A stretch of DNA of 40,594 nucleotides from the sequence record OQ870567.1; one strand, written 5' to 3'. Both the position numbers and the translations under genes were made by a program. The notes under the pieces were generated by a model. That model was not told the origin of the DNA, did not search any database, and worked only from the letters and a program-made list of their open reading frames with translations. Every line of letters begins with the position of its first letter. The stretch's first letter is position 1. This document shows, piece by piece, positions 1-40,594 of this stretch. The stretch is from Escherichia phage SR04.

Positions 1-2762
1 ACTACCGGCTCTGTTTTCTTCTCCCCATTAGAAGTAACAATAGGGTTGCTTCCGAGATATGCAGTTGTGAAACGGTTACTTGGTCCACCAAGCGCAATGA
101 CGTTATCGTGATAAGGCTTAACGTCAGCAGTCTGGAACAGATGCTCATCACCATTGTAAACTATTCGCTTTGAGTCGGTGTTATTTGCACCATAAAGCGT
201 AATCTGTGCGCCAGTCGTTGAACTGGTTCCTTCACCTCCGCAAAATATGGTGCGCTGCCCTGCCGGGTTATCAGTCGGTATAGACTTCCCGATAAACCCA
301 TATTCACCTTCCATTAAAACTTCAGAGCGAATGTTACTACTGGTGCTGGCTCTAATGGTCACATGACCTAAACCCAAATCCCCTGTAAATTCCATTGGCG
401 CAGGAACAGTGCGAATCCCATTCGTATCAAAAAACACGGGAACAGCTCTGTTAGGTACAGCACCATACCTGAAATCACGGGAGACATGATTACTTGGGCC
501 AATCTTCATTTTGTAGCAATACAAATCTGAGGGATGACCATCCGCTTTGAATGGGTCCTTCGCTGAGTTATCTCCATAGGTCCATGGGTTAAAATGGTCC
601 TCTCCACCAAACATGTAGTAGATGTAATTATCCTTCACAACTACCGAACCAACACCTACACCTGAGTTAACTATTCCGCCCTGATAAATCTGGTCAGTGA
701 TGTTAACCCATTCAATATCATCTGCATTCCAATTGTTTACATTCAAGCGCGCATAGAAGGTGCGAGGATAAGATGCCTTGTAACGATCATCTGGTGCACC
801 TGCTTCCCATTCATTTTCTGCACGTTCTGAACCAAACATAATAAGGTCATCCCCTACTTTAGCAAAAGGTAATGTAGTATGATGAACATTATGTGGAAAT
901 CTCAGTGACTCCCAAGTCTGACCTATGTCTCTACTACGATGCAAAGAGCTACCTAGTCTATCCCCACGAGTGCCACGAGTGATAAGGTATAATACACCGT
1001 CATAGTACTTGATGCACGGCTCTGCCGCATCTGGTTCATACTCAGATGGTATCTGACGACGAACATAACTAGATGGGCTATTGAAAGCGTCAGGGAAATA
1101 GAAAAGTCCAACTTCGCGTGGAGCTACATCGCCTTGATGATAACCCATAACAAAGCCATTGTTATCAATAGTAGCAAAGCTATGCACCTCTGTGACACGA
1201 GGGATTAGACCAAGGTCTGTCTTACGCCATGGAGACTTATGGAAAGAAGTACCCATGTGCCAATTCTTTCCAGCGTTATTCAAATCTGAAGTCTGCTGGT
1301 TGGGTGTAAGAACCGTGAAGTTGTCCTTATCTATTACGGTTGCAACAGTCATATCACCGGAGACACCTGTTACCGCAGAATTAGAGAAGTTAACAAAATC
1401 ACCCACGAATAGTCCGTGGTCTGGTACATGTATTGTTGCATATTGCTGATTTGCAGCTTTAGTGATACCACCAGTAAGATGCAGGCTACGAGGCATGGGG
1501 CGATCCCACAATGCACAATTGGTTAATGCGTTCTTGGCTAAAGTACGTGTTTCAATCATGGCAAACAGACGGTTGCGACATACACCCATACTCATACAGT
1601 GATAGTTCACTGTAGGGTAATCTGGATGCAGATCAGTTAACCACTCTGGAGTAGACCATGTTTGACCATCATCACCAGACTTAACCCATGATACATGCAG
1701 ACGACTAACACCATGACGATCACTACCCATGTAAGGTGCATATATCACATTATCATATACGAACGCTTTATCCTGAGGCCACGCATTGTAATAAGGGGTG
1801 TCCGTTATTTTGAACAACTCACCCTGAACAAATTCCTCAGAGGCATAATAAAGAGGTTGTCCGGGAATGCGCTCATAAACGAAACGAGTGTTGATGAAGC
1901 GACTAATGTCAGGCAGGGATGTGACCTTATATGTCTTCCCATTGCCATTAATCTTTTGTCCAACCGGTATGTCGTTTAATGCGCTCGTTAACGCTGCTGT
2001 ATCATCAGTGACACCATCACCTTTAGCACCCCAACCACGAACATCTTTTTCATCAAGCCAGCGTGCTCTATGTAATTCAGGGTAGAGTATTGCCCCTTCA
2101 GGATTTGAAATCTGACTTCTTAAAGCAGCATCACCAACACTAACCCACGCACCTAATCCAATCCCACCGGAAGTTTCAGGAGTTGAACCAGCAGGAACGT
2201 TCTTTGGAAGCGTACCATCCCAGCGGTAATAATCACCATCCTCTTCCCATAGCAGGACCTCGCTCCATGTTGTAACGTTGTAGCCTTTCTCGAAGGAGCG
2301 ACGGGTAATATAGCCAATTAGACCAGCTTCCCTGATACTCTCAGCGATTCGTCGTGCTTCGTCCTCGCTATCCTTAGCGTTGCCAGCAGAGCTACTAGCA
2401 GCATCGGCATATTCCTTCGCTAAGTCAACCGTTTGGTCTCGACCTTCTTCTGCAATATGGATAGCCTGAAGCTCTGAATTGGTCAGGTCACTAGCTGTCA
2501 ACACTGAGCCATTCCTGAAGTCTACCACTAAGTCAGTTCCAGTCTGACGGTGAATACGAACGATGTCGAAACCTGATTGGTCAACCAACATCTCAATCAT
2601 CGTTGGATTAAGGAATCGGTAATCTCGACCAACTTCCAGTACACGGTTCAGGGTAGGGTTAGAGCTATTCACCAGCGTAACAACAACAAACGTTCTGGCT
2701 AGGTAGTCGAACTCAATCCTGTACTGAGTGTTTCCTGAAGGGAATTGTGTAATCGTGGACAT
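1..2762 (-). CDS. Tail spike / endosialidase (T7 gene 17 position), 5' part; ATG at 2760-2762, continues across the circular junction into 40085-40517
   Basis: Hand translation gives MSTITQFPSGNTQYRIEFDYLARTFVVVTL..., matching the T7 gp17 N-terminal tail-attachment domain (EYLARKFVVVTL, DYRF, HVAEEARD). Downstream are sialidase Asp-boxes SGDDGQTW and SRDIGQTW. AGGAGG RBS at about 2767-2772. Confidence 0.85.
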   Translation of the reverse strand, partial: MSTITQFPSGNTQYRIEFDYLARTFVVVTLVNSSNPTLNRVLEVGRDYRFLNPTMIEMLVDQSGFDIVRIHRQTGTDLVVDFRNGSVLTASDLTNSELQAIHIAEEGRDQTVDLAKEYADAASSSAGNAKDSEDEARRIAESIREAGLIGYITRRSFEKGYNVTTWSEVLLWEEDGDYYRWDGTLPKNVPAGSTPETSGGIGLGAWVSVGDAALRSQISNPEGAILYPELHRARWLDEKDVRGWGAKGDGVTDDTAALTSALNDIPVGQKINGNGKTYKVTSLPDISRFINTRFVYERIPGQPLYYASEEFVQGELFKITDTPYYNAWPQDKAFVYDNVIYAPYMGSDRHGVSRLHVSWVKSGDDGQTWSTPEWLTDLHPDYPTVNYHCMSMGVCRNRLFAMIETRTLAKNALTNCALWDRPMPRSLHLTGGITKAANQQYATIHVPDHGLFVGDFVNFSNSAVTGVSGDMTVATVIDKDNFTVLTPNQQTSDLNNAGKNWHMGTSFHKSPWRKTDLGLIPRVTEVHSFATIDNNGFVMGYHQGDVAPREVGLFYFPDAFNSPSSYVRRQIPSEYEPDAAEPCIKYYDGVLYLITRGTRGDRLGSSLHRSRDIGQTWESLRFPHNVHHTTLPFAKVGDDLIMFGSERAENEWEAGAPDDRYKASYPRTFYARLNVNNWNADDIEWVNITDQIYQGGIVNSGVGVGSVVVKDNYIYYMFGGEDHFNPWTYGDNSAKDPFKADGHPSDLYCYKMKIGPSNHVSRDFRYGAVPNRAVPVFFDTNGIRTVPAPMEFTGDLGLGHVTIRASTSSNIRSEVLMEGEYGFIGKSIPTDNPAGQRTIFCGGEGTSSTTGAQITLYGANNTDSKRIVYNGDEHLFQTADVKPYHDNVIALGGPSNRFTTAYLGSNPIVTSNGEKKTEPV

Positions 2763-2808
2763 TATGCCTCCTTTGTTATTTAAACGGAGACCTATGGTAG
2801 CGCCTCCA

Positions 2809-2831
2809 GTTTCCTATAGTGATAGTTTAGT
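2809..2831 (-). promoter_or_regulatory. Phage RNAP promoter (phi17-like), overlaps the gp16 stop codon
   Basis: Minus strand reads ACTAAACTATCACTATAGGAAAC; the CACTATAGG core is shared with ten other sites and resembles the T7 class III consensus at -7 to +2. Confidence 0.7.
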
Positions 2832-5800
2832 CCTTGATGTGGATACCTTGCTCCTCAAACATTCCCAGTAACAACTTCTGAGTAATCGGGTCGTTCGGTA
2901 CCAGTTCACGGAAGGTGTTGTACATCCCGGTCATGTAGTCTCGTTCGTTAACACGGGTGTCTGACTTCAGGTATCCCGCCAAGTTGTAAGCCGTAGCACC
3001 AACGTTAGCAGCATAGCCGAAAGCCGGGACCTGCTCAAGGAAGTTGCCGACCACATTCATTACCGGACCACTGGAAGCAGCACCAAAGGCGATTGGCTTC
3101 TCCGTCTTCTCTGTAGGCGAACGAGGTAGGATAGACGAACGGAGCATCTTAGTGTCCTCATATCCAGCGATTCCACCTAGAATGTTAGCTACCCCAAGTG
3201 GGCCACCCAGATGTGAACTACGGGACAGAGCCGCATAACCAATCATCGTCGGGTCCAGAGCTTGCTTAAGGTAGTCACGGTCTCGACCATCCTGCATAGC
3301 ATAAGCCTTGACGTGCACCTGAGCTATGTAGTAGATACCAGCCAGACCCATAGACATCACGGTCGATAATGCAGCGTCAATCGCTCGGTTGTTCTTCGTG
3401 GCGTTATAGAAGGTACGCATGGTTCGCCCATTGATGGACTTGATGACGAAGTTCTTAAACTGAAGGACAGTCTTAGCGATAGGGCCATAAGCCTTGGCGT
3501 CCATGTTGGACAGCTTGTGGGGCCGGAGTAACGTTTCGTCAGCGATGGTGTCACCCATACGCCATAGGTCCATAGCCCTTGGGTCCTGACTGAACGCCTT
3601 CTTATCCTTGATGGTGTACTTCCCGTCTGGACCACGAGTCACTGACTCACGGATTAGGGACTTAATGCCATTCCACTGCTCGTCAGATATACCAGCGGTC
3701 TTCAGCCAGCGGTCATCGAACTTACGCTTACTACCAGTCAGGCTATGCTCCACGATGTCAGATAGGAAGCCTTGACGTCCAGCATCTAACAGGTAGTTGG
3801 TCGTACCGTTGAGGACTTTAGTGAACGGAGAGCGTACTGCAAGTTCGCCAGTGTAATACTTGGCAGTCCCCAGAGCTGTAGCTGTACCACGACCAAGGTC
3901 ACTGTAAGATCGCAGACGGTCAATGACATCCTGTTTAGACGGACGGATTGAGTCATCCAGTTCCTTACCGAAGATAACATTGTGCAGGTCCTTAATCTCT
4001 GAGGCCCCAACCTTCTTGTTACGGAAGGCTAGGTCACGGAAAATCGGGACTCCATGCAGCATTGCACGAACGTTGCCACGAGCCAGCATACCACCAATCT
4101 CCGTTAAGTTCTGAACACCCATGTAGGCATTCTTAGCGAAGAACGATAGGTCTGTCATTGTTCGCATCACGGTAGCGAAGGCTGCATCGTCAGCACCATC
4201 ACGTCGAGCACGACCTGTTAGAATCTTCAAGGTGTCACGTAAGGTAGATACTTCACCTTTCAACTTACCGTCATCCCCAGCCTTGTTCATCATGGTCTCA
4301 ACCAAGTCCTTCATGTCCTTCGTTGTTTTGCCTGTACCAGCCATGATAGCAATATCGCCATTAACTCGACGGTTGTAGGCCGGGACAATCTTGTCCATGT
4401 CCCACTCACGCAGGTTGTTGACACTGAAGGTCTGACCGTTAGGTAGGACGATTGACATATCGCTATCGAACAGGTTACGAGCCTCAAGGAAGCTGTTGTT
4501 CTCCAGACCAACCAGACCGTTGATGTTCTCTTCCATTACGGATGAACGTTCGAACTGCTCGGTGTGGGAGATGCCGTAAGCCTTATCGTTGGCGTACTTA
4601 TCGACCGCAGCAGCAAGCCCCTCTGGAGTCAACGTAGGGTCAGACTCTAAGAGTGCCTCGTCCACGCGTTTCTTGACTTCAGGTCGAGACGCATAGCTGG
4701 TCAACCATGACTTCTTGATGGCCTCCTGCAACGCCTCTGGACTCCCAAGCTCCTTGATGTACAGCTCCTTCATCTGTTTGCTATACACATGAGGGACGTA
4801 GGTTCCCTTGAAGCGGCTACCCGGAAAGATAGACTGAGCGTCTGGACGACCAAACATCGCCGGGTTCTCCATCATCTCACGCTTGGCGTCAAACTGGTTC
4901 TTCAGTAGGTCATAGACTTTAAGTTCTCCCGGAGTCAGTTCAGCCTTCAGGTTCCCACTTCCGTCTTCAATAGCCATAGACACACGCTGGTAGATGTCCT
5001 GACGGAATGCGCCAGAGTCTCGCCAGAATGCTGTCTGGAAGTACGGGTCCTTCAGTGCCTCAGTAACCGCATCGTCGATGTCGTTGTAGAACCGATGGTC
5101 CACAGCACGAAGTCTCTCGAATACGTCAGACGCAGTGGTCCCGATTTTACCTGAGGCCCCAGACTGCATACCAGTTGGTGAACGCACTAAGTCAGAAGCT
5201 ACTCCACGAATCTCAGGGTTCTCAGACCGAAGCAGCTTCAGGCCAATCTCAGTCAGACCACCAAGGTTCACACCCGCAGCGGCCCGTTCAGGCTCAATCA
5301 CTTCGTCAAAGACTTGACGTGTCTTAGGGTTCAGAGGGTTTTCACCAATCAGGATTGAACCATCTTCCAGTCGTACACTACCCGGCTCATTCGGAACGTC
5401 AGCGAACTTAACGCCTTGATGACTAAAGGTCTCCTCACCTTCTTGAATAGGAAGACGAGACAGGTCCTGACCATCAACGTTACGAGCGGTCTCACGAGCT
5501 TCCAGACGTGTGGCTGGACCAGCAAACTCATTAGTGTTGCGACCTAAGGCTCTGCCTAACCCATCAGCGATGGCAGTCATACCACCACCAAAGAGAGCAC
5601 CACCAAGGATAGCTTCAGCCACATGAGCATCACCGCCAGCCACTGAGGTACGGGCCATCTCTGATACACCAGCAAGTGCTCCAGATTGAGCAGCCACGGT
5701 GAACATCTTGTTGACCAGCTTCGCACCTTTGCCAACCTGTCCAGCGATAGGAACGTAGGTCAGCGGGTCTACACCAGCACCAATCACACCAGCTGCTAAC

Positions 5801-6714
5801 TGAGCACCAGTCCCAGCCTTGGCCTTCTCTTGGTCCAACTTCTGGTTCTCAAGCGCTAAGTTAATAAGCTCGGTCAGGTTCTGAGGGGAGCCGCCAGTAA
5901 TGACACCGTAATACTGAGGGAGAACTCCAGCGTTACGAATCTGGTCCAGCTCCTCACGAGACCACTTATGGTTGTTCCAGCGGGTAGGGTTGAACACATC
6001 GCCAATGACATCAAGTGAGTCCTCGGTCTGACCAGCGCGGATAGCCACGCCGACCATAGAGTTCTTCACTTCAGCTTCTGTAGCCGATCCGAAACCGAAC
6101 CACGTAGAGCGATCCTCTCGTTCCTGCATGGTCTCGCCAGTAGACTTATAGAACATCTCACCGAACGATTCGTTGGGAGCTTCAGGTGCTTGACCCTCAA
6201 TGTTTAGACCAGCAGCGGTCGGAAGGTTCTCGCCCAGAGCTACTTTAGGTTTAGCCTTGAGTCCTTCCGTGAGTGCGTCAAATACGTTAGCGCTTACTGG
6301 TGGAGTCTTTGGGCTAATGCCATTGAGTGCCCGTGCGACTCCCTTCTGATAGACTTCAGGATTGTACCGGGAGCCTGTCTCCTGGAAGCTAATAGCTTGC
6401 GCCAGAGCAGACAGGGTGTCCGGGTTCGATAGGTCGAGACTCTGGGTAGCTGGAATACCGGTTGCAGCCACCACTGAGTCAATATAAGCCTTAGTGTCGT
6501 TCTCGTTAGGAGGTGCCCATCGGTTGATAATCTTCTCGATGGAGTCATAACCTCGGCGACCGTAGGACAGCAGGTTTTTACCTAAAGCTCGGACGCCAGA
6601 CTCTGGACTATCGAAGGTGACGAATGCGCCATCATCTCCAGTCATTCCTTCCCATTGGTCCTTACTTACCCGGATGTTACCCGGATTGTTATTGCGAATA
6701 CCACGAGTCGCCAT
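2827..6714 (-). CDS. Internal virion protein D (gp16-like, 1295 aa) with an atypical N-terminal domain
   Basis: The C-terminal two thirds align by eye with T7 gp16 (LRSPTGMQSGASGK, AYGISH, NGDIAIMG, KILTGRARR, PNDPITQKLL). The N-terminus carries an NNPGNIR motif rather than the T7 transglycosylase motif. Confidence 0.85.
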   Translation of the reverse strand: MATRGIRNNNPGNIRVSKDQWEGMTGDDGAFVTFDSPESGVRALGKNLLSYGRRGYDSIEKIINRWAPPNENDTKAYIDSVVAATGIPATQSLDLSNPDTLSALAQAISFQETGSRYNPEVYQKGVARALNGISPKTPPVSANVFDALTEGLKAKPKVALGENLPTAAGLNIEGQAPEAPNESFGEMFYKSTGETMQEREDRSTWFGFGSATEAEVKNSMVGVAIRAGQTEDSLDVIGDVFNPTRWNNHKWSREELDQIRNAGVLPQYYGVITGGSPQNLTELINLALENQKLDQEKAKAGTGAQLAAGVIGAGVDPLTYVPIAGQVGKGAKLVNKMFTVAAQSGALAGVSEMARTSVAGGDAHVAEAILGGALFGGGMTAIADGLGRALGRNTNEFAGPATRLEARETARNVDGQDLSRLPIQEGEETFSHQGVKFADVPNEPGSVRLEDGSILIGENPLNPKTRQVFDEVIEPERAAAGVNLGGLTEIGLKLLRSENPEIRGVASDLVRSPTGMQSGASGKIGTTASDVFERLRAVDHRFYNDIDDAVTEALKDPYFQTAFWRDSGAFRQDIYQRVSMAIEDGSGNLKAELTPGELKVYDLLKNQFDAKREMMENPAMFGRPDAQSIFPGSRFKGTYVPHVYSKQMKELYIKELGSPEALQEAIKKSWLTSYASRPEVKKRVDEALLESDPTLTPEGLAAAVDKYANDKAYGISHTEQFERSSVMEENINGLVGLENNSFLEARNLFDSDMSIVLPNGQTFSVNNLREWDMDKIVPAYNRRVNGDIAIMAGTGKTTKDMKDLVETMMNKAGDDGKLKGEVSTLRDTLKILTGRARRDGADDAAFATVMRTMTDLSFFAKNAYMGVQNLTEIGGMLARGNVRAMLHGVPIFRDLAFRNKKVGASEIKDLHNVIFGKELDDSIRPSKQDVIDRLRSYSDLGRGTATALGTAKYYTGELAVRSPFTKVLNGTTNYLLDAGRQGFLSDIVEHSLTGSKRKFDDRWLKTAGISDEQWNGIKSLIRESVTRGPDGKYTIKDKKAFSQDPRAMDLWRMGDTIADETLLRPHKLSNMDAKAYGPIAKTVLQFKNFVIKSINGRTMRTFYNATKNNRAIDAALSTVMSMGLAGIYYIAQVHVKAYAMQDGRDRDYLKQALDPTMIGYAALSRSSHLGGPLGVANILGGIAGYEDTKMLRSSILPRSPTEKTEKPIAFGAASSGPVMNVVGNFLEQVPAFGYAANVGATAYNLAGYLKSDTRVNERDYMTGMYNTFRELVPNDPITQKLLLGMFEEQGIHIKD

Positions 6715-6719
6715 TATTA

Positions 6720-9002: not shown

Positions 9003-9013
9003 TAGTCCTCCTC

Positions 9014-9601
9014 TTAGCTATGACCTGTAGGTGTGCCTTTAGCAGCACTAATTGGTGCAGCACCACCAGAGCTGGACGCTCCAGAGATTGACTTACCAGC
9101 GGCGTAACCTTGCATCCCGGCGTTAGCAACATTAAGTGCATGAGCCAGTGGGCTGGTCTTGATGATTTTACCTTGACCACGGATAGCAGACTTGGTGTTC
9201 TCGATGTTGGCGATACGGTTCCCGAAGATAGCCGCATAGTCGCGGTTGTAACTTTCGGTAATCCCTGCTCGCTCCTTGACTGTATCTCCTGCGACCTGAC
9301 GTTCAATCCTGTCCATAGAGTTACCTTCCAGACCGGACTCAGCCACCGCAGCTCGGACCATACCCTGATTGCGGATACCGTTGAGCGTGGTCTCTGTCAG
9401 TTCAGCCATCTGCTGCTCCTTCAGGTCGCGCTCCTGCATCCTCAGGTTGGCGTCAGAGTAGTTCATCTGCTTAACCATTTCCTGAGCCTGTCGGTTCTGA
9501 GCGTCAATTGCCGCTCCTTCAGCCTTGGCCTGTTGGGATGCGGACATAGTGGCACCAGCTACAGCCATAATACCCATGCCGATACTTACTGGCTCGCACA
9601 T
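9014..9601 (-). CDS. Internal virion protein B (gp14-like, 195 aa)
   Basis: Starts MC..., has SMDRI and a C-terminal AAKGT motif as in T7 gp14; synteny. Confidence 0.8.
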   Translation of the reverse strand: MCEPVSIGMGIMAVAGATMSASQQAKAEGAAIDAQNRQAQEMVKQMNYSDANLRMQERDLKEQQMAELTETTLNGIRNQGMVRAAVAESGLEGNSMDRIERQVAGDTVKERAGITESYNRDYAAIFGNRIANIENTKSAIRGQGKIIKTSPLAHALNVANAGMQGYAAGKSISGASSSGGAAPISAAKGTPTGHS

Positions 9602-30062: not shown

Positions 30063-30066
30063 AGCG

Positions 30067-33315: not shown

Positions 33316-33384
33316 ACTTAAAGTCCTTGTTATTAGTCTTTCACTTAAAGTCTCTTTGGTCTTTCACTTGGAGTCTTAGACCTT

Positions 33385-33407
33385 GAGTCCTATAGTGATA
33401 GTTAAGT
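33385..33407 (-). promoter_or_regulatory. Phage RNAP promoter about 75 nt upstream of the RNAP gene
   Basis: Minus strand ACTTAACTATCACTATAGGACTC; full match to the promoter core. Confidence 0.6.
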
Positions 33408-33412
33408 CATAA

Positions 33413-33673
33413 TTACTTGCATATCAGTGGGTTAGCGTGAAGATGACTGAAGTCACCGTGAGTCGTGTGCTTGATGTCTGACCGTTGGTCTATCGCCTTC
33501 CAGCCTGAGACTAAAAGTTTACCATCGTCAGTGATCGGTCGTCCACCAAACGCCAGACTCATCAGTTCGTACTTATTGCCCTCAGCCCTCATGCGGCGAT
33601 GTAAGAACACGTCACGCTCTATTTGCTCTACACGGCTACGGATAGATGGTTTGTTAATGTATACGGTTTTCAT
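33413..33673 (-). CDS. Hypothetical early protein (86 aa), at the position of the T7 gene 0.7 kinase but not a kinase
   Basis: ORF with a TAATG overlap to the upstream gene; no kinase motifs. Confidence 0.5.
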   Translation of the reverse strand: MKTVYINKPSIRSRVEQIERDVFLHRRMRAEGNKYELMSLAFGGRPITDDGKLLVSGWKAIDQRSDIKHTTHGDFSHLHANPLICK

Positions 33674-33870
33674 TACAGTTTGCTCCCAATAGTTGCTATA
33701 TCCCAGACGTTCGCTAAGTTGCGCATGAATCGTCCGTTAGGTTGACGTACAGTCCAGCGGACCATACGTACATAGTTGAATTTATAGACTTTACGCGCTT
33801 TGTTGATGTCTCTCACCAGCACGTAGGCGATAAGTCCATAGCCTATGGCTATCAATAATGAAGATATCAT
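33673..33870 (-). CDS. Small early membrane protein (65 aa, MISSLLIAIGYGLIAYVLV...)
   Basis: N-terminal transmembrane segment; ATGA overlap with the preceding small ORF. Confidence 0.5.
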   Translation of the reverse strand: MISSLLIAIGYGLIAYVLVRDINKARKVYKFNYVRMVRWTVRQPNGRFMRNLANVWDIATIGSKL

Positions 33871-33956
33871 AGTGATTTCCGTTTAATACAATCGTATACC
33901 CCATAACCTATCATCAAGATAACTGGCGCTAGACATACCCAGTAACCGATGTTCAT
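33867..33956 (-). CDS. Small early membrane peptide (29 aa, MNIGYWVCLAPVILMIGYGVYDCIKRKSL)
   Basis: Hand translation; GGAG 6 nt upstream; shares an IGYG motif with the next ORF. Confidence 0.4.
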   Translation of the reverse strand: MNIGYWVCLAPVILMIGYGVYDCIKRKSL

Positions 33957-33984
33957 AATTAACTCCTATCAATTTAAGTGATAA

Positions 33985-34015
33985 TCTTTGAGGCCACCTA
34001 TCAGTCGTGACCTCT
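33985..34015 (-). promoter_or_regulatory. Hairpin GAGGUCAC-loop-GGUGGCCUC, possible RNase III site in the early transcript
   Basis: Related to the AAGGUCA...UGGCCUU hairpin family; intergenic. Confidence 0.3.
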
Positions 34016-34021
34016 CGTCTA

Positions 34022-34171
34022 TCACTCAGTGTGTAAGCTGTCGTGCATACGTTTGCGGCGCTTATAGACCACCTTCAGGAGACGCATAGACTCCTCGTGG
34101 TTTAATCGCCCGGTCTTGACCATAAGCCGGGCGGTGGTGACGTGGTGCTGGCAGAGACCATAAGTTACCAT
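34022..34171 (-). CDS. Small basic early protein (49 aa, MVTYGLCQHHVTTARLMVKTGRLNHEESMRLLKVVYKRRKRMHDSLHTE)
   Basis: Hand translation; TGATG overlap with the ocr stop; GAGGAGG 8 nt upstream. Confidence 0.45.
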   Translation of the reverse strand: MVTYGLCQHHVTTARLMVKTGRLNHEESMRLLKVVYKRRKRMHDSLHTE

Positions 34172-34506
34172 CACTCGCAGTCCTCCTCTTCAGCCTCAAA
34201 CCAGACCACCTCAGAGCTATTAGACACATCGTTATACAATGCCTCATAGATGCGAGCTTGTAGTATACGCGTTATGTCCTTGGTCTCAGGCATCAGCCCA
34301 GAGTCTTCGAACTCATGGTCAATACCATCAGCAGCCATCACCGTGAAAATCTCGTGGTAATAGTGCGGAACATTACCGTCTACGACCTCATGTAGCGCAT
34401 CGCTGTAGTCATCGCCTTCAGCTATTTCGTCGCACTGAATACGCTCATTGAACAGCTCAACGGTTGCAGCCAGCAGCTCATAGTATGCGTTAGCGTTACG
34501 TTCCAT
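34171..34506 (-). CDS. ocr: Ocr-like anti-restriction protein (gp0.3 homologue, DNA mimic, 111 aa)
   Basis: D...A.H...D..VPHYY..IF.VMA..GID.EFEDSGLMP.TKD..RILQARIYE and an acidic C-terminus align with T7 Ocr. Confidence 0.85.
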   Translation of the reverse strand: MERNANAYYELLAATVELFNERIQCDEIAEGDDYSDALHEVVDGNVPHYYHEIFTVMAADGIDHEFEDSGLMPETKDITRILQARIYEALYNDVSNSSEVVWFEAEEEDCE

Positions 34507-34579
34507 AGTTATATCCTCTCAGTTGTTAGTGACTATCAGTCAGGCCGCTATGAGTCTAACGACCTGTAGTTAATCACTC

Positions 34580-34834
34580 TCAGTTAGCGAAATAAGGAGC
34601 TGAGACGCCAGCTGTAGGACTCACGGCTATCTGCGCGTCTATCAGGTAGGTCTCGTTATCTATACGCACAGTATCTACGCTGTAGTTGCTGAACGGCTTG
34701 CTTGAGACCTTGCGCACTACCACACGGTGACGCGCTCCTGTCATCTCTTTAAGCTGAATCCACGCATAACCTTTAGTGTTCACGAATACTTCATTACGAT
34801 TAGTGATTGTGCTTAAGTGTTTCATAGTGTCCAT
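34580..34834 (-). CDS. Hypothetical early protein (84 aa; start possibly the second Met), first gene after the early promoter
   Basis: ORF upstream of ocr, preceded by a repeated hairpin element. Confidence 0.45.
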   Translation of the reverse strand: MDTMKHLSTITNRNEVFVNTKGYAWIQLKEMTGARHRVVVRKVSSKPFSNYSVDTVRIDNETYLIDAQIAVSPTAGVSAPYFAN

Positions 34835-35012
34835 CCGTTAAGTTAGTGACTATCAGTCAGGGCCTTTGAGTCTACATCTGAAGGCCCTGTAGTTAGTCGC
34901 TATCGGCGTACATTAAGAGTTTATCCAGATTGTTAAAGAGCATTCCCTTCAGTCAGAGGACTTCAGGTAGACCATTTCAGTGTTGGTCATCACCGTTGTT
35001 TCGATGTGGTAC

Positions 35013-35042
35013 AGCTTACATCGTATCGTTACATCTTGTCAA
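35013..35042 (-). promoter_or_regulatory. Sigma70 early promoter (A3-like): -35 TTGACA, 18-nt spacer, -10 TAAGCT
   Basis: Minus strand GTAGTTGACAAGATGTAACGATACGATGTAAGCTGTACCACATCG resembles the T7 A3 promoter region. Confidence 0.45.
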
Positions 35043-35399
35043 CTACTTTCTGTCATCTGCCTGTTGTTCGTATGACTGATCAGGCTGTCTACTTAACCGG
35101 GATGATCCGGCGTCTTCACTATCCGGTTGTTGCCGTGTCGTGTTGACGGAAGCTATTAAGCCATAGCCTAGACCTATAGTCAATAGGTAATTTGAAATAA
35201 TATTGATTAAGCTATCGTCGGCCTCATGGTTTAAGAGGATATAGTCTTTGACTAACATGTCTTTGACCTTAAGTCTATAGCTTTGTGTCTATTAACTGTT
35301 GGTATCTGACTGTAGGTGTTGGTGTCTTATGGTTGAGACTGTAGGTTAGTGAGACTGTAGGTTAGTTAGACTGTAGGTGTAGGACGTAATGTTATACTA

Positions 35400-35619
35400 T
35401 AACACTATACAGATAGAGACTCAGAGACAGACCTATAGCCCCTACCTATCGTCCTTCCCTAAGCCATAGCCTAGACCTATCGTTGACCTGAAGTCCTGAC
35501 CATCGGTCCAACCTTATGACAGACTGGCTGTGACTGCAAGGAGCAGTAACTGGGGTAGGGCCTTTTGTCTGGACTGAAAGAGGGCCTATGGGGAGACTTG
35601 AGGTTCTTGAACTGTGAGA
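35400..35619. repeat. Predicted genome terminus and direct terminal repeat (collapsed to one copy in this circular assembly)
   Basis: Minus strand from about 35619 reads TCTCACAGTTCAAGAACCTCAAGTCTCCCCATAGG, like the T7 left end TCTCACAGTGTACGGACCTAAAGTTCCCCCATAGG. It is flanked by CCTACAG repeat clusters (35308-35382 and 35655-35703), analogous to the T7 CCTAAAG arrays. Confidence 0.4.
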
Positions 35620-35856
35620 TGTGGTCTCAAACTTTTGGTCCAAAACTCATCGTCACTACTGTAGGCCACAGCCACTGTAGGTCAAGGACCGTAGGTCAGG
35701 CGACACTAGGATAGACCAATAAGTAGGATGACCCTAAGTGAGCTTCTCTTAAGGTGTTACCTAAAGTCCTTGACTGCAGTAGCTAAGGTCAGTAGAGTAG
35801 CGTCAGCTATGAACTGACCTTAGGTCTTCCGCTCATGAATCGTTACCATGATTGCG

Positions 35857-36015
35857 TTAATTACACTGAGAGACCAGAGAGCATACGAGAGTCTCGACCC
35901 ACCCGACCCACTGACTTCCAGCAGTAACGCCAGCAGCAAGTAGAACAGCAGCAAGAAACCTGTATGTAGCTCGATTGGTCGCCAGAGCTTTAAGTACAGC
36001 TTTGGTCTTTGCCAT
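35857..36015 (-). CDS. gp19.5-like small protein (52 aa, MAKTKAVLKALATNRATYRFLAAVLLAAGVTAGSQWVGWVETLVCSLVSQCN)
   Basis: Hand translation; the TYRFL motif and position after the phiOR-like promoter match T7 gp19.5. Confidence 0.55.
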   Translation of the reverse strand: MAKTKAVLKALATNRATYRFLAAVLLAAGVTAGSQWVGWVETLVCSLVSQCN

Positions 36016-36160
36016 ATGCTACATACCTCCTGTATCTATGGTCGGTGACTATCTGTATTGGAGGGATTATGATTAATATCACCTCCTCTATAGGGAGACT
36101 TAGAGTCTTATCTATATGCTAACTTTTAGTCGGCATACTATAAGGTCCCCCTAGGTCCCC

Positions 36161-36183
36161 CATCCCTATAGTGATAGTTAAGT
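36161..36183 (-). promoter_or_regulatory. Phage RNAP promoter (phiOR-like) between the terminase/HNH genes and gene 19.5
   Basis: Minus strand TTAACTATCACTATAGGGATGGG. Confidence 0.7.
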
Positions 36184-36196: not shown

Positions 36197-36739
36197 TTAC
36201 TTGTGGTTTCTCTTGGCCCTATCACGCTTAGGGGACCGTAGGGAAACAGCGTACTCCTTGTGCTTCTCTTCACGTAGTGCTGTCAGCCATGCTTCAAGTT
36301 CTATCACAGAGTCGGAAGTCTTTGTGTAGCACTTACCCTTAAGTCGCAACTGAGCGCGATACTTTCCGGTAGGCTTGAAGAAGCTGATACCCTTAGGGAG
36401 ACCATTAGTCTCGCCACCTCCTGAGTTCCATCTGTTCTCCAATGCTGTTACTAACCTGTAGTTATCCGGCCTGTCATCAAGCCTATCACCATTGATATGG
36501 TCAACCATCATGCCAGAAGGTATTCGACCAACGGCTAGGCTGTAGATGATTCTGGCACGTCTATAGCGACTACCAAGGACCTTCACGATTGCGTACCCAG
36601 ACGGATGGACTGAATGTCCCATGACCTCGCCTGGCTTCTTGTTAGAGCCTTTATAGGGCTTCTTGCACACCAACTCACCATCTACATAAGCATAGTGATT
36701 AAAGAGGGCCACCCTGTCGATGGCCTTCTGTTTACTCAT
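36197..36739 (-). CDS. HNH homing endonuclease 2 (180 aa)
   Basis: HNH motif MVDHINGDRLDDRPDNYRLVTALEN; GGAGG RBS 6 nt before the ATG. Confidence 0.8.
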   Translation of the reverse strand: MSKQKAIDRVALFNHYAYVDGELVCKKPYKGSNKKPGEVMGHSVHPSGYAIVKVLGSRYRRARIIYSLAVGRIPSGMMVDHINGDRLDDRPDNYRLVTALENRWNSGGGETNGLPKGISFFKPTGKYRAQLRLKGKCYTKTSDSVIELEAWLTALREEKHKEYAVSLRSPKRDRAKRNHK

Positions 36740-36752: not shown

Positions 36753-38519
36753 TTAGTGGAACGTAACGTATGACCCTAGTCCCAGCTCGTCGTCCGTATC
36801 GTGAGTTACCCGGACCCCATTGTCCCAGAACTCAGTGTGGATGGACTCGAAGCCTTTCCGTGGGTTCTCCATCTGTTCCTCCAGCCACTCCTCAGTGACT
36901 TCACGTTCGCCTTTGTTGGCATCCTTAGCCATCGACTCAACGAAGAACTGTACACCGATAGCCAGCGCATCAAGTCGGTCATCGTGTGCCAAGGCTCCAC
37001 GCTCACGAGAGATACGGGTCATCTGGTAGAAGAGAGAGTAGATAGGGTTACGAACACCATCCTTATCAGAGGCTGACTGGTAGTCTTGGACGATAGCAGC
37101 AGCGTTAACGATAAGTCTGTGAGACCCCATGATAGGCTCCAGAACGTCACAGATGCGGAGTTCTTTCTGACCCTTACTCTTCACTTCAGTTACAGCAGCA
37201 GGATGGATACGGGCAGCTACAGGCTTGAATAGCTCAAGGTACATACCATCGCCGAAGTTACCCTCAATAACGTATTCGTTGACCTTCCACTTACGACCAA
37301 TCTTAGCCAAGGCTTCCAGCGTAGAGTCTTCATAGCCACCGCGCATACCACCAACTTCCATAGCGAAGATGTAGCCGTTGAGCTGGTACAGTACCGCATA
37401 ACCAGTTTCATCCTTACCACGACCACTAGGGTCAATGACCAGAATCTTCTGGGTGTACGAACTGAAGGCAGAACCTACAGTCTGATACGTGTGGTACGAG
37501 TCACCCATGAGTCCAACGTTAGGAACGTCCTCACGCTTGTTCTGAGGGTTCGGCAACCATTGGTAGACCATTGGGCTAGACTCTGGGTCCAAGTCTGCTA
37601 CGATAAGGTCACGGAGCTTCAGAGGGTACTTCTCTGCATCACTCAGGTTCGGGTTAAGCATGAACTGTAGAGCGAAGCCAGCTTTACCATAGGACAGTTC
37701 ACGTTCCTTCAGGTCCGTATCATCGAATCGTACTTCATCGGTAGGACGCCAGTAGAAGGACTCAGGGTCCTCTTCAAGCTCTGCCTGAAGCATAGGAGCC
37801 AGACGGTCGCCGTAAGACTGCCAGTCCTTCTTATCGCGTGGGTAGCGAGCGGGCCAGATGGTAGTGGTATATCCACGACCTTCCAGCTCACGATACAAGG
37901 TCATCTCGTTCTGAGGAGTACCCAGATAGATGATTGTACCTCCCGGCTTCAGGATAGCGTCGAACTCTTTCACAAGCTCTGACAGACGGTCTCGTGCAGC
38001 CTGAGTCGCTGAGTTGTTCGGAACCTCCACGTCATCGGCAATCAGGATGTCAGCACGACTACCAGTCAACTGACCAGTGATACCAACGGACTTAACTGAA
38101 GGTGAGTGGTCTGGCTTGGCTGGTCCAACGTCGAAGCTGATAACCGCATCTCGCTGCCCCTGCTTAGGTTTGAGTTCCTGAAGCTGAGGCATGAGGTCGA
38201 TGATTCGCTTGATGAAGATGGAGTTCGCATCGGCTCGTTCCTTTGAGGCCGACACAATCATGAACTTCAAGTCTGGGTTGTTCCATAGCTTCCAGACCAC
38301 GAAACCACAGGTCAGAAACGACTTGCCAATACCACGGAACGCCTGAAGTATGAATCGGCGATTATCCCCCGCAGCCAGCTTCTTACACATATCTATCTGG
38401 CAGCGGGTTGGAACCGGAAGGCTAAGAGCTTTCCAGAGAACGAAGATGAAGAACACGAAGTCGTCCCTCATCCTTTGGGTCATTTCTGCCTGTCTTTCAA
38501 CAGGTGTTTTCTTAGACAT
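36753..38519 (-). CDS. Terminase large subunit (gp19-like, 588 aa)
   Basis: Size, position and general similarity to T7 gp19. Confidence 0.9.
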
Positions 38520-38952
38520 AGAGTCCCTCCAGCATTAGGTCCCGGACAGAGATAGCCTCCTCTAAAGTAGGACGTGTTGTTCGCATACGGACTCCCTTAC
38601 GCATGACCTCGATAGCGTAGCCATTCTGATGGAACGATATGTTCTTAACTCCAGTCTTTGAGTCAGAATGTCCTGAGGTGTTGCAGGAGTTCTCGCTTGA
38701 AGTAACTAGCCGGAGGTTGTCCAGCCTGTTGTTAGTCCGGCAGCGGTCAATATGGTCAATCTCCATACCTTCTGGTATAGGACCGTGGGTTAGTTCCCAG
38801 ACGACTCTATGGGCCAGCAGGAGTCCATGACGTCGAGTTCCTACCTGATAATACCCGTGGTTTCCCACACACCCAACATCCTTACCAGAACGCATGGACT
38901 TCAGGCCAGACTTACTGGACTCATTATAGATATACGAATCACTGAGCATCAT
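38512..38952 (-). CDS. HNH homing endonuclease 3 (146 aa), inserted between Rz and the large terminase gene
   Basis: HNH motif [34 protein letters not shown]; about 85% nucleotide identity to HNH1 over the core; ATGA overlap with the Rz stop. Confidence 0.8.
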
Positions 38953-39392
38953 TGCTCCTTATCTTGCTGCAAGGCTCTCACAGTGTCCTGAAGGGCCTTA
39001 ATCCACTTGTCTCCTTTCACTCCGATGGCGATAAGACGTTTAGCATCTCGTTCGTCAAGTTCGGCGTAACCATCAATGACGCATCTACCGTCACTTTGCG
39101 TGGTTCCACTCGTTGACTTGACTCGGATGCGCAGCCGCTTATTGTCAGACTGAAGGTCAGCAATAATCCTATCAGTGCTGCCTTCCAGCGAGGACATTTC
39201 GTCCTGAAACCGTTTGGACACTTTGTTGACTTCAGCTTGGACAGCAAGCCTTGTATCTTCCGATGCCTTAAGATTCGAGGTGTATTCCTCATTGACCTTA
39301 GCCTCCCACTTATTGTTAGCGGTGTTGTAGCCACCAGCAAACATCACTGCTGCAAGTAACCACGGAGCCGCTCTCTTTAAAAATTCGAGCAT
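38949..39392 (-). CDS. Rz-like i-spanin (gp18.5-like, 147 aa)
   Basis: MLEFL N-terminal transmembrane segment, EGSTDRII.DL.SDNKRLR.RVK and RDAKR.L align with T7 gp18.5. Confidence 0.85.
   Translation of the reverse strand: MLEFLKRAAPWLLAAVMFAGGYNTANNKWEAKVNEEYTSNLKASEDTRLAVQAEVNKVSKRFQDEMSSLEGSTDRIIADLQSDNKRLRIRVKSTSGTTQSDGRCVIDGYAELDERDAKRLIAIGVKGDKWIKALQDTVRALQQDKEQ
39017..39292 (-). CDS. Rz1-like o-spanin lipoprotein embedded in the +1 frame of Rz (about 91 aa from MRNTPR)
   Basis: PRWK.ALIGL...ISGCASES lipobox and D.SLMV.PNLT.EMLNV match T7 gp18.7. Confidence 0.7.
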   Translation of the reverse strand: MRNTPRILRHRKIQGLLSKLKSTKCPNGFRTKCPRWKAALIGLLLTFSLTISGCASESSQRVEPRKVTVDASLMVTPNLTNEMLNVLSPSE

Positions 39393-39450
39393 AGTTGCCC
39401 TCCCGGTTTATCAGATTTCACGTAGAGTCGCCTCCACTAGTTAGTGTTAA

Positions 39451-39490
39451 CCATAAAGGCCACTACATATAGTAATGACCTTGAGTCTAA
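39451..39490 (-). promoter_or_regulatory. RNase III-type processing hairpin (R18.5-like)
   Basis: Minus strand AAGGUCAUUAC-UAUAU-GUAGUGGCCUU; third copy of the conserved hairpin, upstream of the Rz gene as T7 R18.5. Confidence 0.45.
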
Positions 39491-39493
39491 CAC

Positions 39494-39757
39494 TTATTGA
39501 ATACCATACCCTGTGTCATTATCCTCAGTCGCTGAAAGCACCTTATCGTACTCTGCGTTCAGGGCCTCCATATCAGCCAGCGTCTTCTCGTCCACAGACA
39601 CCTTACTTAACACAAAGTTGTGACGAGCAAGCAGCTTCTCAATGGCGTTGTAGAGCTGAGGTGAACGCTTAGTGTCATCCCGCAGGTCTTGCAGCATGAG
39701 TCGAGCACGTTCAGTATCTAGCATTAAGAGGAACTTCTCTAAGTCCATCTGCGTCAT
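39494..39757 (-). CDS. Terminase small subunit (gp18-like, 87 aa)
   Basis: FL.MLDT, RSPQLYNAI.KLL.RH.F align with T7 gp18. Confidence 0.85.
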   Translation of the reverse strand: MTQMDLEKFLLMLDTERARLMLQDLRDDTKRSPQLYNAIEKLLARHNFVLSKVSVDEKTLADMEALNAEYDKVLSATEDNDTGYGIQ

Positions 39758-39951
39758 GTTTTACCACCGCCTCCTTTAATCGTTTTGTAGACTAGCACAC
39801 CAATCTGGACAACGGTGTACGCGATAGCTGCAACGTAGAACCATTCGTTCAGCGTAAGTCCGAAGAAGAACCGACTGGCACCATCAGCCGCAGCGGTCCC
39901 GACGATAGGAGAGGCTTTAAGGACCTCATTCTTGAAGTCTAACTCAATCAT
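39754..39951 (-). CDS. Class II holin (gp17.5-like, 65 aa)
   Basis: KA.PIVGT..AD.SAR.FFGL.LNEWFYVAAIAYTVVQIG is near-identical to T7 gp17.5. Confidence 0.9.
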   Translation of the reverse strand: MIELDFKNEVLKASPIVGTAAADGASRFFFGLTLNEWFYVAAIAYTVVQIGVLVYKTIKGGGGKT

Positions 39952-40084
39952 AAAACCTCCAGTTTAAAGCGGGTCGTCCGTGACCCAAAGTTGTTACCTT
40001 ATGTTGTTTAGCGTGTAGTTAGCCTCTACCTACACAACCTTCTAACATCTACCCCACCAACTTAATGGCAAAGGGTTTTGTTTA

Positions 40085-40517
40085 TTACTTCTGTTCAAGG
40101 GCAGAAAGTCTGGCTTCGATTCTTTCCAGTTTTCTTCTCTGATAAGCGGCTTCAGCAAAGAAAATTCCGTCAGGCCGAACACCCCACTCCTCACCCCCTT
40201 CATGGATAACCACCTCAGTGAATACAGGCTCTTCCGTAGTAGTGACATTACCCTCCTCGTCAGTGTGTTCAATGATTTCATTGTGCGAAAATACCGTATC
40301 GGTCATCCGTGGATACTTGTCATAGCACAGAACGGCATAACGACAATTCGTACTGTTTTCATCCATCAGACCGTGTGCAATGAATACATCACGAATTTGC
40401 TGAGCAATAACCCCGAAGTGAATACGAGCATCAGTGCCTTTCAGTTGAACAGCATCTAACCATTGATACATGATGTAGTGAACGTCACCCCAGGCATCTA
40501 GGAAAGCATCATCAAAA
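40085..40517 (-). CDS. Tail spike / endosialidase, 3' part: C-terminal intramolecular chaperone domain and stop; joins 1-2762 across the junction for 1064 aa in total
   Basis: Frame continuity across the junction: 2762 + 433 nt = 1065 codons. The C-terminus ...RKLERIEARLSALEQK is the tail of a chaperone-type domain recalled from endosialidase tail spikes. Confidence 0.8.
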
Positions 40518-40594
40518 ACTACCGGCTCTGTTTTCTTCTCCCCATTAGAAGTAACAATAGGGTTGCTTCCGAGATATGCAGTTGTGAAACGGTT
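40518..40594. repeat. 77-bp exact duplicate of window positions 1-77 (circular assembly overlap)
   Basis: Direct comparison of both window ends; typical k-mer-length overlap of a circularised contig. Confidence 0.9.

What the first reader, a model, noticed from the sequence alone, without database searches (positions are those of the whole stretch)
1..40594. Complete circularly assembled T7-like genome with strict single-strand coding and K1F-like gene content
The 77-bp terminal identity means the window is the whole replicon. All supported genes are on the minus strand in T7 order, from genes 0.3 to 19.5. Both the T7 gene 0.7 kinase and gene 7.7 appear absent, and several positions are occupied by ORFs with no T7 counterpart.
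Basis: partly seen in the sequence, partly recalled or inferred. Interest (0 to 1): 0.45.

Follow-up and report, generated by a model that had tools for sequence, protein, structure and literature searches.

The report
Ordinary K1F-like T7-family coliphage genome
The window is one complete genome of a K1F-like (Kayfunavirus) T7-family phage that attacks K1-capsulated E. coli, closed into a circle by the assembler; it is a new but ordinary member of a well-studied group.

Summary
Bases 1-77 equal 40518-40594 exactly, so the unique sequence is 40,517 bp. The junction falls inside gene 17 and is collinear with K1F and phiHAO1-1. About 93% of the unit is minus-strand coding, in T7 order from gene 0.3 to 19.5, with 11 K1F-type promoters all on the minus strand. 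T7 gene 0.7 has no homologue and there is no room for it. Gene 7.7 is absent from its slot. K1F lacks both genes too.

Nearest relatives by genome-wide similarity are phage Zappy (93.0%), phiHAO1-1 (90.9%), K1F (87.6%) and T7 (28.5%). This places it in Kayfunavirus, below the 95% species line against these relatives.

One correction: this is not a circular replicon. K1F's 178-bp terminal repeat maps once, to 35416-35619, so the virion DNA is predicted to be linear, about 40.7 kb.

The ORFs without a T7 counterpart are:
- three HNH homing endonucleases;
- an alternative -1 frameshift capsid (10B) tail;
- small accessory genes already in PHROGs;
- one acidic 149-aa protein with no recognisable fold.

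Interest is low.

The parts
1..77 (.). Assembly overlap, first copy; lies inside gene 17
   Evidence: Exact identity with 40518-40594. K1F and phiHAO1-1 are continuous across it.
40518..40594 (.). Assembly overlap, second copy (redundant)
   Evidence: The Zappy record has the same 77-bp overlap.
35416..35619 (-). Predicted direct terminal repeat, one collapsed copy of 204 bp. Predicted left genome end at 35619 and right end at 35416.
   Evidence: K1F's exact 178-bp repeat aligns here with one 26-bp insertion. K1F right-end unique sequence continues on the high-coordinate side and left-end unique sequence on the low-coordinate side. Inferred by homology, not shown by reads.
35043..35258 (-). 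Gene 0.1 (71 aa, unknown function)
   Evidence: 91.5% to K1F gp0.1; phrog_30192.
34580..34834 (-). Gene 0.2 (84 aa, unknown function); not aligned in Zappy
   Evidence: 96% to K1F gp0.2; phrog_10124. The Zappy alignment has a gap here.
34171..34506 (-). Gene 0.3, Ocr DNA mimic (111 aa, T7-like length; K1F's is 169 aa)
   Evidence: Pfam ocr 2.3e-31; 55% to T7 gp0.3; 96% to K1F gp0.3 residues 1-109.
33413..34174 (-). Small early genes 0.35, 0.37 and 0.38 (50, 65 and 86 aa). This is the interval where T7 carries genes 0.4-0.7.
   Evidence: 84-91% to the K1F proteins. PHROGs of unknown function. No hit for T7 0.4-0.7.
30634..33315 (-). Gene 1, single-subunit RNA polymerase (893 aa)
   Evidence: Pfam RNA_pol 2.8e-106; 62.6% to T7 and 98.1% to K1F.
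28744..29814 (-). Gene 1.3, ATP-dependent DNA ligase
   Evidence: Pfam ligase domains; 50% to T7 and 80% to K1F.
28353..28814 (-). HNH-a, free-standing HNH_3 homing endonuclease after the ligase gene (start codon uncertain); absent from K1F
   Evidence: Pfam HNH_3 1.4e-22; phrog_99 1.7e-42. The window carries about 395 bp here where K1F has almost none.
26315..27028 (-). Gene 2.5, ssDNA-binding protein (237 aa), with one extra 15-bp repeat unit in the acidic tail
22990..24690 (-). Gene 4, primase/helicase
   Evidence: Pfam; 98.6% to K1F.
20539..22710 (-). Gene 5, DNA polymerase (723 aa), uninterrupted. K1F's record has a 600-bp insertion carrying gene 5.3.
   Evidence: T7 gp5 aligns over residues 4-704 in one piece. 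K1F 14931-15531 has no counterpart between window 20694 and 20696. K1F gene 5 is annotated as a two-piece join.
19445..19894 (-). 149-aa acidic protein of unknown function between genes 5.7 and 6, in the slot of T7 gene 5.9; absent from K1F
18586..19452 (-). Gene 6, exonuclease
15634..17202 (-). Gene 8, portal
   Evidence: Pfam Head-tail_con.
13477..14526 (-). Gene 10A, major capsid protein (349 aa)
   Evidence: Pfam Gp10A-like 2.4e-105; 97.7% to K1F.
13498..13504 (-). G GTT TTC heptamer, candidate -1 frameshift site for a 10B-type minor capsid protein
   Evidence: The same heptamer sits at T7 23986, just upstream of the 10A stop. In T7 the -1 frame ends at 24162, the annotated end of 10B.
13214..13497 (-). 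-1 frame continuation of gene 10: an alternative 10B C-terminal module (includes the listed 68-aa ORF 13214-13420)
   Evidence: The -1 frame is open from 13552 to 13214. phrog_7473. About 110 phages share it at 95-100%, and Citrobacter phage CR8 annotates the homologous stretch as 10B. K1F, Zappy and phiHAO1-1 carry the T7-like tail instead.
13179..13196 (-). Terminator-like hairpin with a T run downstream of gene 10, at the position of T7's terminator Tphi
   Evidence: The assignment rests on position only.
2827..13056 (-). Genes 11, 12, 13, 14, 15 and 16 (tail tube and internal virion proteins)
   Evidence: 96-100% to the K1F proteins and 37-53% to the T7 proteins.
1..2762 (-). Gene 17, endosialidase tailspike, codons 1-920 approximately (N-terminal part)
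   Evidence: Pfam Phage_T7_tail, End_N_terminal, End_beta_propel, End_beta_barrel and End_tail_spike.
40085..40517 (-). Gene 17, C-terminal part including the S74 intramolecular chaperone domain
   Evidence: Pfam Peptidase_S74. ORF continuous across the junction.
38949..39951 (-). Genes 17.5 (holin), 18 (small terminase) and 18.5/18.7 (spanins)
38512..38952 (-). HNH-b, HNH_3 homing endonuclease inserted between genes 18.5 and 19; absent from K1F and phiHAO1-1, present in Zappy
   Evidence: Pfam HNH_3 1.8e-21. Gaps in the K1F and phiHAO1-1 alignments. Zappy CDS 38505-38942.
36753..38519 (-). Gene 19, large terminase
   Evidence: Pfam Terminase-T7_RNaseH-like; 64% to T7 and 97% to K1F.
36197..36739 (-). 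HNH-c, HNH_3 homing endonuclease after gene 19; absent from K1F and phiHAO1-1, present in Zappy
   Evidence: Pfam HNH_3 1.6e-14; 36% to T7 gp3.8.
35857..36015 (-). Gene 19.5-like (K1F gene 19.4), 52 aa
   Evidence: 92% to K1F gp19.4; weak hit to T7 gp19.5.
2811..36181 (-). Eleven phage-RNA-polymerase promoters, consensus TAAACTATCACTATAGGRA. Sites: 36163-36181, 33387-33405, 30319-30337, 28273-28291, 27070-27088, 24933-24951, 18439-18457, 15618-15636, 14631-14649, 10088-10106, 2811-2829.
   Evidence: 11 matches, all on the minus strand, against 0.01 expected by chance. K1F has 11 sites at the equivalent positions.
30285..30311 (-). RNase III-site-like hairpin (position of T7 R1.1)
   Evidence: Fold z-score -3.2. 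The AAGGTC...GYGGCCTT motif also occurs at T7 1441, 5861, 6421 and 13867.
22739..22763 (-). RNase III-site-like hairpin upstream of gene 5 (position of T7 R4.7)
39456..39482 (-). RNase III-site-like hairpin between genes 18 and 18.5 (position of T7 R18.5)
   Evidence: Fold z-score -3.8.

Best explanation
The window is the complete unique sequence (40,517 bp) of a lytic T7-family podophage of genus Kayfunavirus, a K1F-like phage. A de Bruijn assembler output it as a closed circle with an untrimmed 77-bp overlap, opened arbitrarily inside the tailspike gene and in reverse orientation.

By homology it should work like T7 and K1F. The virion DNA is linear with a direct terminal repeat of about 204 bp (predicted ends at 35619 and 35416). 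Host RNA polymerase transcribes the early genes (0.1-0.38, including the Ocr anti-restriction DNA mimic) and gene 1. The phage's own single-subunit RNA polymerase then transcribes everything else from 11 promoters of the K1F type, all in one direction. RNase III-like hairpins process the transcripts.

A gp17 endosialidase tailspike degrades the polysialic-acid K1 capsule, which sets host range to K1 E. coli. Like K1F it has no gene 0.7 kinase or shut-off protein and no gene 7.7.

Shown here: sequence, homology, synteny and motifs. Inferred: physical ends, transcription programme, host, and the 10B frameshift.
For: Relatives:
- Megablast: 95-99% coverage at 95-96.5% identity to Kayfunavirus phages.
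- Genome-wide similarity: 93.0% to Zappy, 90.9% to phiHAO1-1, 87.6% to K1F, 28.5% to T7.
- 40 of 56 T7 proteins hit, all on the minus strand; those that map to their own slot are in T7 order.
- 49 of 51 K1F proteins hit in order, with structural proteins 96-100% identical. One further hit, gp5.3, is only a weak match to the HNH ORF after the ligase gene.

Core proteins: Pfam recovers RNA polymerase, terminase, portal, capsid, Ocr, DNA polymerase, primase/helicase, ligase and the full endosialidase architecture.

Transcription signals:
- 11 promoters on one strand, against 0.01 expected by chance, at the same positions as in K1F.
- Shine-Dalgarno sequences precede nearly all called genes.

Genome ends:
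- The terminal-repeat homologue is flanked by both K1F end-adjacent sequences.
- The junction is collinear in two independent genomes.

Other: no tRNA gene and no Rfam match.
Against: - No reads are available, so the physical termini, the repeat length and the absence of assembly errors are inferred only.
- The scan for sigma-70-like early promoters was not above chance, so the host-polymerase early promoters are not located.
- Host specificity is inferred from 97.4% identity to K1F endosialidase and was not tested.
Confidence: 0.93

Rival explanations
1. The 77-bp identity reflects a truly circular replicon (a plasmid-like or circular phage genome), or a circularly permuted, headful-packaged genome, rather than an assembly artefact of a linear genome with fixed terminal repeats.
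For: The sequence closes on itself exactly. The phiHAO1-1 record is deposited as circular.
Against: - Seventy-seven bases is a standard assembler k-mer length (my own knowledge). The overlap sits in the middle of an essential ORF.
- The Zappy record has the identical artefact.
- K1F and T7 records are linear, with exact 178-bp and 160-bp terminal repeats.
- The K1F repeat has a single homologue at 35416-35619 with the expected flanks.
- The large terminase is T7-type.
Confidence: 0.04
2. The window is a chimeric or misassembled contig, for example a mix of two co-occurring Kayfunavirus strains, and not one real genome.
For: Identity to relatives is patchy. The first 25 kb is closest to phiHAO1-1 and Zappy, and the last 15.6 kb is closest to Zappy and vB_EcoP_F. 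Accessory cassettes differ from every relative compared.
Against: - Such mosaicism is the norm in this group, and each variable cassette is found intact in other deposited phages.
- Every core ORF is full length with no frameshifts.
- Zappy is collinear over 96.7% of the length, with breakpoints only at accessory-gene boundaries.
Confidence: 0.03

Closest known systems
Escherichia phage Zappy (OQ870568.1; Kayfunavirus)
   Same: Closest deposited genome: 96.2% identity over 96.7% of the length, 93.0% genome-wide similarity. It has the same accessory set around the terminase gene (HNH-b, HNH-c) and the same 149-aa ORF. Its record has the same start base and the same 77-bp overlap.
   Different: - Zappy does not align over window genes 0.2 and 1.75.
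- Zappy has a different gene 5.5 allele and the T7/K1F-type 10B tail.
- Zappy carries an extra 143-aa ORF between genes 4 and 5.
- Zappy lacks 272 bp of gene 17.

Escherichia phage K1F (AM084414 / NC_007456; type species of Kayfunavirus)
   Same: Same gene order and the same 11 promoter positions. Endosialidase gp17 is 97.4% identical, RNA polymerase 98.1%, and structural proteins 96-100%. K1F also has no gene 0.7 or 7.7.
   Different: Genome-wide similarity is 87.6%.
- The window lacks K1F's 600-bp insertion in gene 5 (with gene 5.3) and gene 0.36.
- It has a shorter Ocr (111 versus 169 aa) and a shorter gene 3.2.
- It has divergent genes 1.1, 1.7 and 5.5.
- It gains three HNH endonuclease genes, a 59-aa ORF before gene 4, the 149-aa ORF before gene 6, and a different 10B tail.
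- Its predicted terminal repeat is 26 bp longer.

Escherichia phage T7 (NC_001604; Teseptimavirus)
   Same: Single-strand layout, gene order 0.3 to 19.5, own RNA polymerase with conserved CACTATAGG promoter core, RNase III-type hairpins with the same AAGGTC...GGCCTT motif, and the GGTTTTC heptamer at the end of gene 10A.
   Different: Only 28.5% genome-wide similarity.
- No homologues of T7 0.4-0.7, 1.4, 1.5, 2.8, 4.1, 4.3, 4.5, 4.7, 5.3, 5.9, 6.3 or 19.3. No HNH gene at the 3.8 or 7.7 positions.
- T7 gp5.5 and gp7 give no tblastn hit. Their slots hold ORFs that match PHROG families named Gp5.5-like and 'host range and adsorption protein'.
- The tail fibre is replaced beyond residue 120 or so by an endosialidase.
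- The promoter upstream half differs, with no match to the T7 consensus at up to 5 mismatches.

Membership tests
Autographiviridae / Studiervirinae (T7-like phages) | Encodes its own single-subunit DNA-dependent RNA polymerase | tested here: met
   Gene 1, 893 aa; Pfam RNA_pol 2.8e-106 and RPOL_N; 62.6% to T7 gp1.
Autographiviridae / Studiervirinae (T7-like phages) | All genes on one strand, in the conserved early / DNA metabolism / structural order | tested here: met
   All T7 and K1F homologues are on the minus strand in order. Minus-strand coding is 93%. No plus-strand ORF has family support.
Autographiviridae / Studiervirinae (T7-like phages) | Phage-specific promoters recognised by the phage RNA polymerase, distributed along the genome | tested here: met
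   11 sites matching TAAACTATCACTATAGGRA, all on the coding strand, against 0.01 expected by chance. This is motif evidence only; transcription was not measured.
Autographiviridae / Studiervirinae (T7-like phages) | Linear genome with short direct terminal repeats | tested here: inconclusive
   One copy of a homologue of the K1F repeat lies at 35416-35619 with the expected flanks. Two copies and physical ends cannot be seen in a collapsed assembly without reads.
Genus Kayfunavirus | At least 70% nucleotide similarity over the whole genome to members of the genus (ICTV genus criterion, from my own knowledge) | tested here: met
   VIRIDIC-like similarity is 87.6% to K1F, 93.0% to Zappy and 90.9% to phiHAO1-1. 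This is my own BLASTN implementation, not VIRIDIC itself.
Species Kayfunavirus K1F | At least 95% nucleotide similarity over the whole genome (ICTV species criterion, from my own knowledge) | tested here: not met
   87.6% to K1F, and 93.0% to the best of the four genomes compared. No listed record does better in both halves than Zappy. Not every Kayfunavirus record was compared over the whole genome.
K1-specific endosialidase tailspike phages | gp17 with a T7-type N-terminal adaptor, endosialidase beta-propeller with inserted beta-barrel, stalk domain and C-terminal S74 chaperone | tested here: met
   All seven Pfam domains are present in order; 97.4% identity to K1F gp17 over 1064 aa.
K1-specific endosialidase tailspike phages | Depolymerises alpha-2,8-polysialic acid and needs the K1 capsule for infection | not testable with these tools
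   Requires enzyme and plaque assays.
T7-type gene 10A/10B programmed -1 frameshift | Slippery site near the end of 10A and an open -1 frame giving a longer minor capsid protein | tested here: met
   GGTTTTC lies 6 codons before the 10A stop. The -1 frame is open for a further 89 codons. T7 has the same heptamer at the equivalent place. Actual frameshifting was not tested.

The most novel reading that the evidence does not exclude
The 149-aa acidic protein (19445-19894, phrog_4382) occupies the slot where T7 carries gp5.9, its RecBCD inhibitor. It is absent from K1F but scattered among T7-like and Felix-O1-like phages. It has a confidently predicted core with no match to any solved fold. It could be a new host-takeover or anti-defence protein, for example a nuclease inhibitor or DNA mimic. 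Separately, the genome could qualify as a new Kayfunavirus species, at 93% similarity to its nearest record.
Probability: 0.2. Interest if true: 0.35.

Novelty: new member of a known kind. Interest (0 to 1): 0.1.

Why it matters
It matters little for biology in general. K1F-like phages have been sequenced many times and their layout is textbook T7. The value is practical.

- The genome is complete and can be re-oriented to start at 35619 on the minus strand, with the 77-bp duplicate removed and the terminal repeat restored.
- It adds one more K1-capsule-specific phage, of interest for therapy against neonatal-meningitis and uropathogenic E. coli.
- It illustrates which cassettes vary in this genus: HNH homing endonucleases, the 10B capsid tail, and early or accessory genes.

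Tried and rejected
- Rfam on the whole window and ARAGORN: nothing found.
- Rfam on the K1F gene-5 insertion, to confirm it as a group I intron: no hit at gathering score. I therefore call it only 'the insertion annotated as a two-piece join with gene 5.3'.
- Sigma-70 promoter scan of the early region: not above chance.
- The 149-aa ORF gave no functional lead:
  - no Pfam match;
  - no PDB sequence match (best E-value 0.39);
  - 31 homologues, all unnamed;
  - AlphaFold model with pLDDT 74.5;
  - Foldseek against BFVD found only uncharacterised phage proteins.
- Exact look-up of the RNA polymerase protein in public assemblies, to find the sample of origin: not on record.
- The original K1F genome paper (Scholl and Merril 2005) is not held in the library. 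K1F features are therefore taken from the GenBank annotation.
- I considered that ORF 35446-35643 (65 aa, TTG start) and ORF 40042-40281 (79 aa) might be genes. Both were rejected: the first lies inside the predicted terminal repeat and the second inside gene 17, and neither has a counterpart in the K1F annotation.
Full report
**Observation.** The first 77 bases of the window are identical to the last 77 (1-77 = 40518-40594), and the identity stops there. The non-redundant unit is therefore 40,517 bp, with 49.8% G+C.

The junction is not at a genome end. It lies inside gene 17. Read across the junction, gene 17 is one uninterrupted 1064-aa ORF (2762->1, then 40517->40085). K1F aligns as 22358-35422 to window 13066-1 and as 35346-36983 to window 40594-38955, so the two blocks overlap by exactly 77 bp. 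phiHAO1-1 shows the same overlap.

The closure is therefore a faithful join of real sequence. From my own knowledge, an overlap of this length is what a k=77 de Bruijn assembler leaves on a circular path. The GenBank record of the closest relative, Zappy, has the same 77-bp overlap and starts at the same base.

**What it is.** Megablast of both parts of the window finds only T7-family phages. The best are Kayfunavirus members at 95-99% coverage and 95-96.5% identity. A VIRIDIC-like calculation gives these genome-wide similarities:

| Relative | Similarity |
|---|---|
| Zappy | 93.0% |
| phiHAO1-1 | 90.9% |
| K1F | 87.6% |
| T7 | 28.5% |

Of 56 T7 proteins, 40 give tblastn hits, all on the minus strand. 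Those that map to their own slot follow T7 order from gene 0.3 (34458) through genes 1, 1.3, 2.5, 3, 3.5, 4, 5, 6, 8-17, across the junction to 17.5, 18, 18.5, 19 and 19.5 (35869). The hits of the HNH proteins gp3.8 and gp7.7 fall on the HNH ORFs elsewhere in the genome.

Of 51 K1F proteins, 49 hit in order. Structural proteins are 96-100% identical, the RNA polymerase 98.1% and the endosialidase gp17 97.4%. K1F gp0.36 has no hit, and gp5.3 gives only a weak hit to the HNH ORF after the ligase gene.

Pfam confirms the RNA polymerase, terminase, portal, capsid, Ocr, family-A DNA polymerase, primase/helicase and ligase. It also confirms the complete endosialidase architecture: T7 tail adaptor, N-terminal extension, beta-propeller with inserted beta-barrel, stalk and S74 chaperone.

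**Strand bias.** Called minus-strand genes cover 93% of the unit. Every one of the 67 plus-strand ORFs of 60 aa or more is at least half overlapped by them. The ten longest plus-strand ORFs match no PHROG family.

Nearly all called genes are preceded by a Shine-Dalgarno sequence. Eleven copies of TAAACTATCACTATAGGRA occur, all on the minus strand, against 0.01 expected by chance. K1F has 11 sites at the equivalent places.

Three hairpins carry the motif AAGGTC...GYGGCCTT, at 30285-30311, 22739-22763 and 39456-39482. The same motif occurs in T7 at 1441, 5861, 6421 and 13867, which from memory are the R0.5, R1.1, R1.3 and R4.7 RNase III sites.

**Genes 0.7 and 7.7.** T7 gp0.7 has no hit even at E = 0.01. 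The whole interval between the end of gene 0.3 and the start of gene 1 is 856 bp and is filled by three small K1F-type genes.

T7 gp7.7 gives only a weak HNH-motif hit at 38686-38823, far from its own slot. Genes 7.3 and 8 are 11 bp apart. K1F's annotation likewise has neither gene, so this is a genus trait and not a peculiarity of this genome.

**The correction: linear, not circular.** K1F's record is linear with an exact 178-bp terminal repeat, and T7's has 160 bp. The K1F repeat has a single homologue in the window, at 35619->35416 on the minus strand. It is 204 bp because of one 26-bp insertion.

On its high-coordinate side the window continues as K1F's right-end unique sequence. On its low-coordinate side it continues as K1F's left-end unique sequence. 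That is the signature of a terminally redundant linear genome collapsed by assembly.

I therefore predict virion DNA of about 40,721 bp, with ends at 35619 and 35416. This is inferred by homology, since no reads were available.

**ORFs without a T7 counterpart.**
1. Three free-standing HNH_3 endonuclease genes lie after the ligase gene (28353-28814), between genes 18.5 and 19 (38512-38952), and after gene 19 (36197-36739). Pfam E-values are 1e-14 to 1e-22, and all three match phrog_99. They are paralogous to T7 gp3.8 at 36-45% identity. All three are absent from K1F. The two that flank gene 19 are present in Zappy and absent from phiHAO1-1. This is typical homing-endonuclease behaviour.
2. The 68-aa ORF 13214-13420 is the tail of a -1 frame that is open from inside gene 10. 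The heptamer GGTTTTC lies 6 codons before the 10A stop, as in T7, where the -1 frame ends at the annotated 10B stop. The 89-residue extension differs from the T7/K1F tail. About 110 phages share it at 95-100%, and Citrobacter phage CR8 annotates it as 10B. It is best read as an alternative minor-capsid tail.
3. Several small genes (0.1, 0.2, 0.35, 0.37, 0.38, 1.1, 3.7, a 59-aa ORF before gene 4, 4.3 and a 58-aa ORF after gene 5) all fall in existing PHROGs of unknown function. Gene 1.75 has no PHROG match but is 76% identical to K1F gp1.75.

**Other differences from K1F.**
- Gene 5 is uninterrupted. K1F's 600-bp insertion with gene 5.3 is missing.
- Ocr is 111 aa rather than 169 aa.
- Gene 3.2 is shortened.
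- gp2.5 has one extra DFGDD repeat in its acidic tail.

**Verdict.** The object is an ordinary, complete Kayfunavirus genome. It is a new member of a known kind, possibly a new species by the 95% rule. Nothing in its architecture departs from K1F or T7. Interest is low.

Noticed in passing
window 13214-13504 (minus strand): The ORF downstream of the capsid gene is the -1 frame continuation of gene 10 past a T7-identical GGTTTTC heptamer. It encodes an 89-residue tail unlike the T7/K1F 10B tail. About 110 other phages share it, and most records annotate it as a separate hypothetical protein.
   Followed up: yes
window 28353-28814, 38512-38952, 36197-36739: Three paralogous HNH_3 homing-endonuclease genes, two of them bracketing the large terminase gene. 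HNH-a and HNH-b share 120 nt at 79% identity (28521-28640 versus 38701-38820). All three are absent from K1F, and the two around gene 19 are also absent from phiHAO1-1.
   Followed up: partly
window 19445-19894: An acidic 149-aa protein in the slot of T7 gene 5.9. It has no Pfam family and no solved-fold match. Homologues occur in T7-like and Felix-O1-like phages.
   Followed up: yes
window 20694-20696 versus L001 (K1F) 14931-15531: The DNA polymerase gene is uninterrupted here, whereas the K1F record splits it around a 600-bp insertion carrying gene 5.3. Rfam did not recognise that insertion as a group I intron at gathering score.
   Followed up: partly
L003 (Zappy, OQ870568.1) 1-77 and 40486-40562; about 2043-2045: The deposited Zappy record keeps an untrimmed 77-bp assembly overlap, starts inside gene 17 at the same base as this window, and lacks 272 bp of gene 17 relative to the window and K1F. 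Gene 17 is not annotated in that record.
   Followed up: partly
window 26365-26411: A perfect 15-bp tandem repeat of 3.1 copies encodes DFGDD repeats in the acidic C-terminal tail of gp2.5, one unit more than in K1F.
   Followed up: yes
window 35334-35378: A 16-bp tandem repeat (TGAGACTGTAGGTTAG, 2.8 copies) lies just inside the left end, next to the predicted terminal repeat. It recalls the short repeat arrays that flank the T7 terminal repeats (from memory).
   Followed up: no
window 33387-33405: A phage-type promoter sits directly upstream of the phage RNA polymerase gene, which would allow self-amplified transcription of gene 1. K1F has the same site at 2476-2494.
   Followed up: partly
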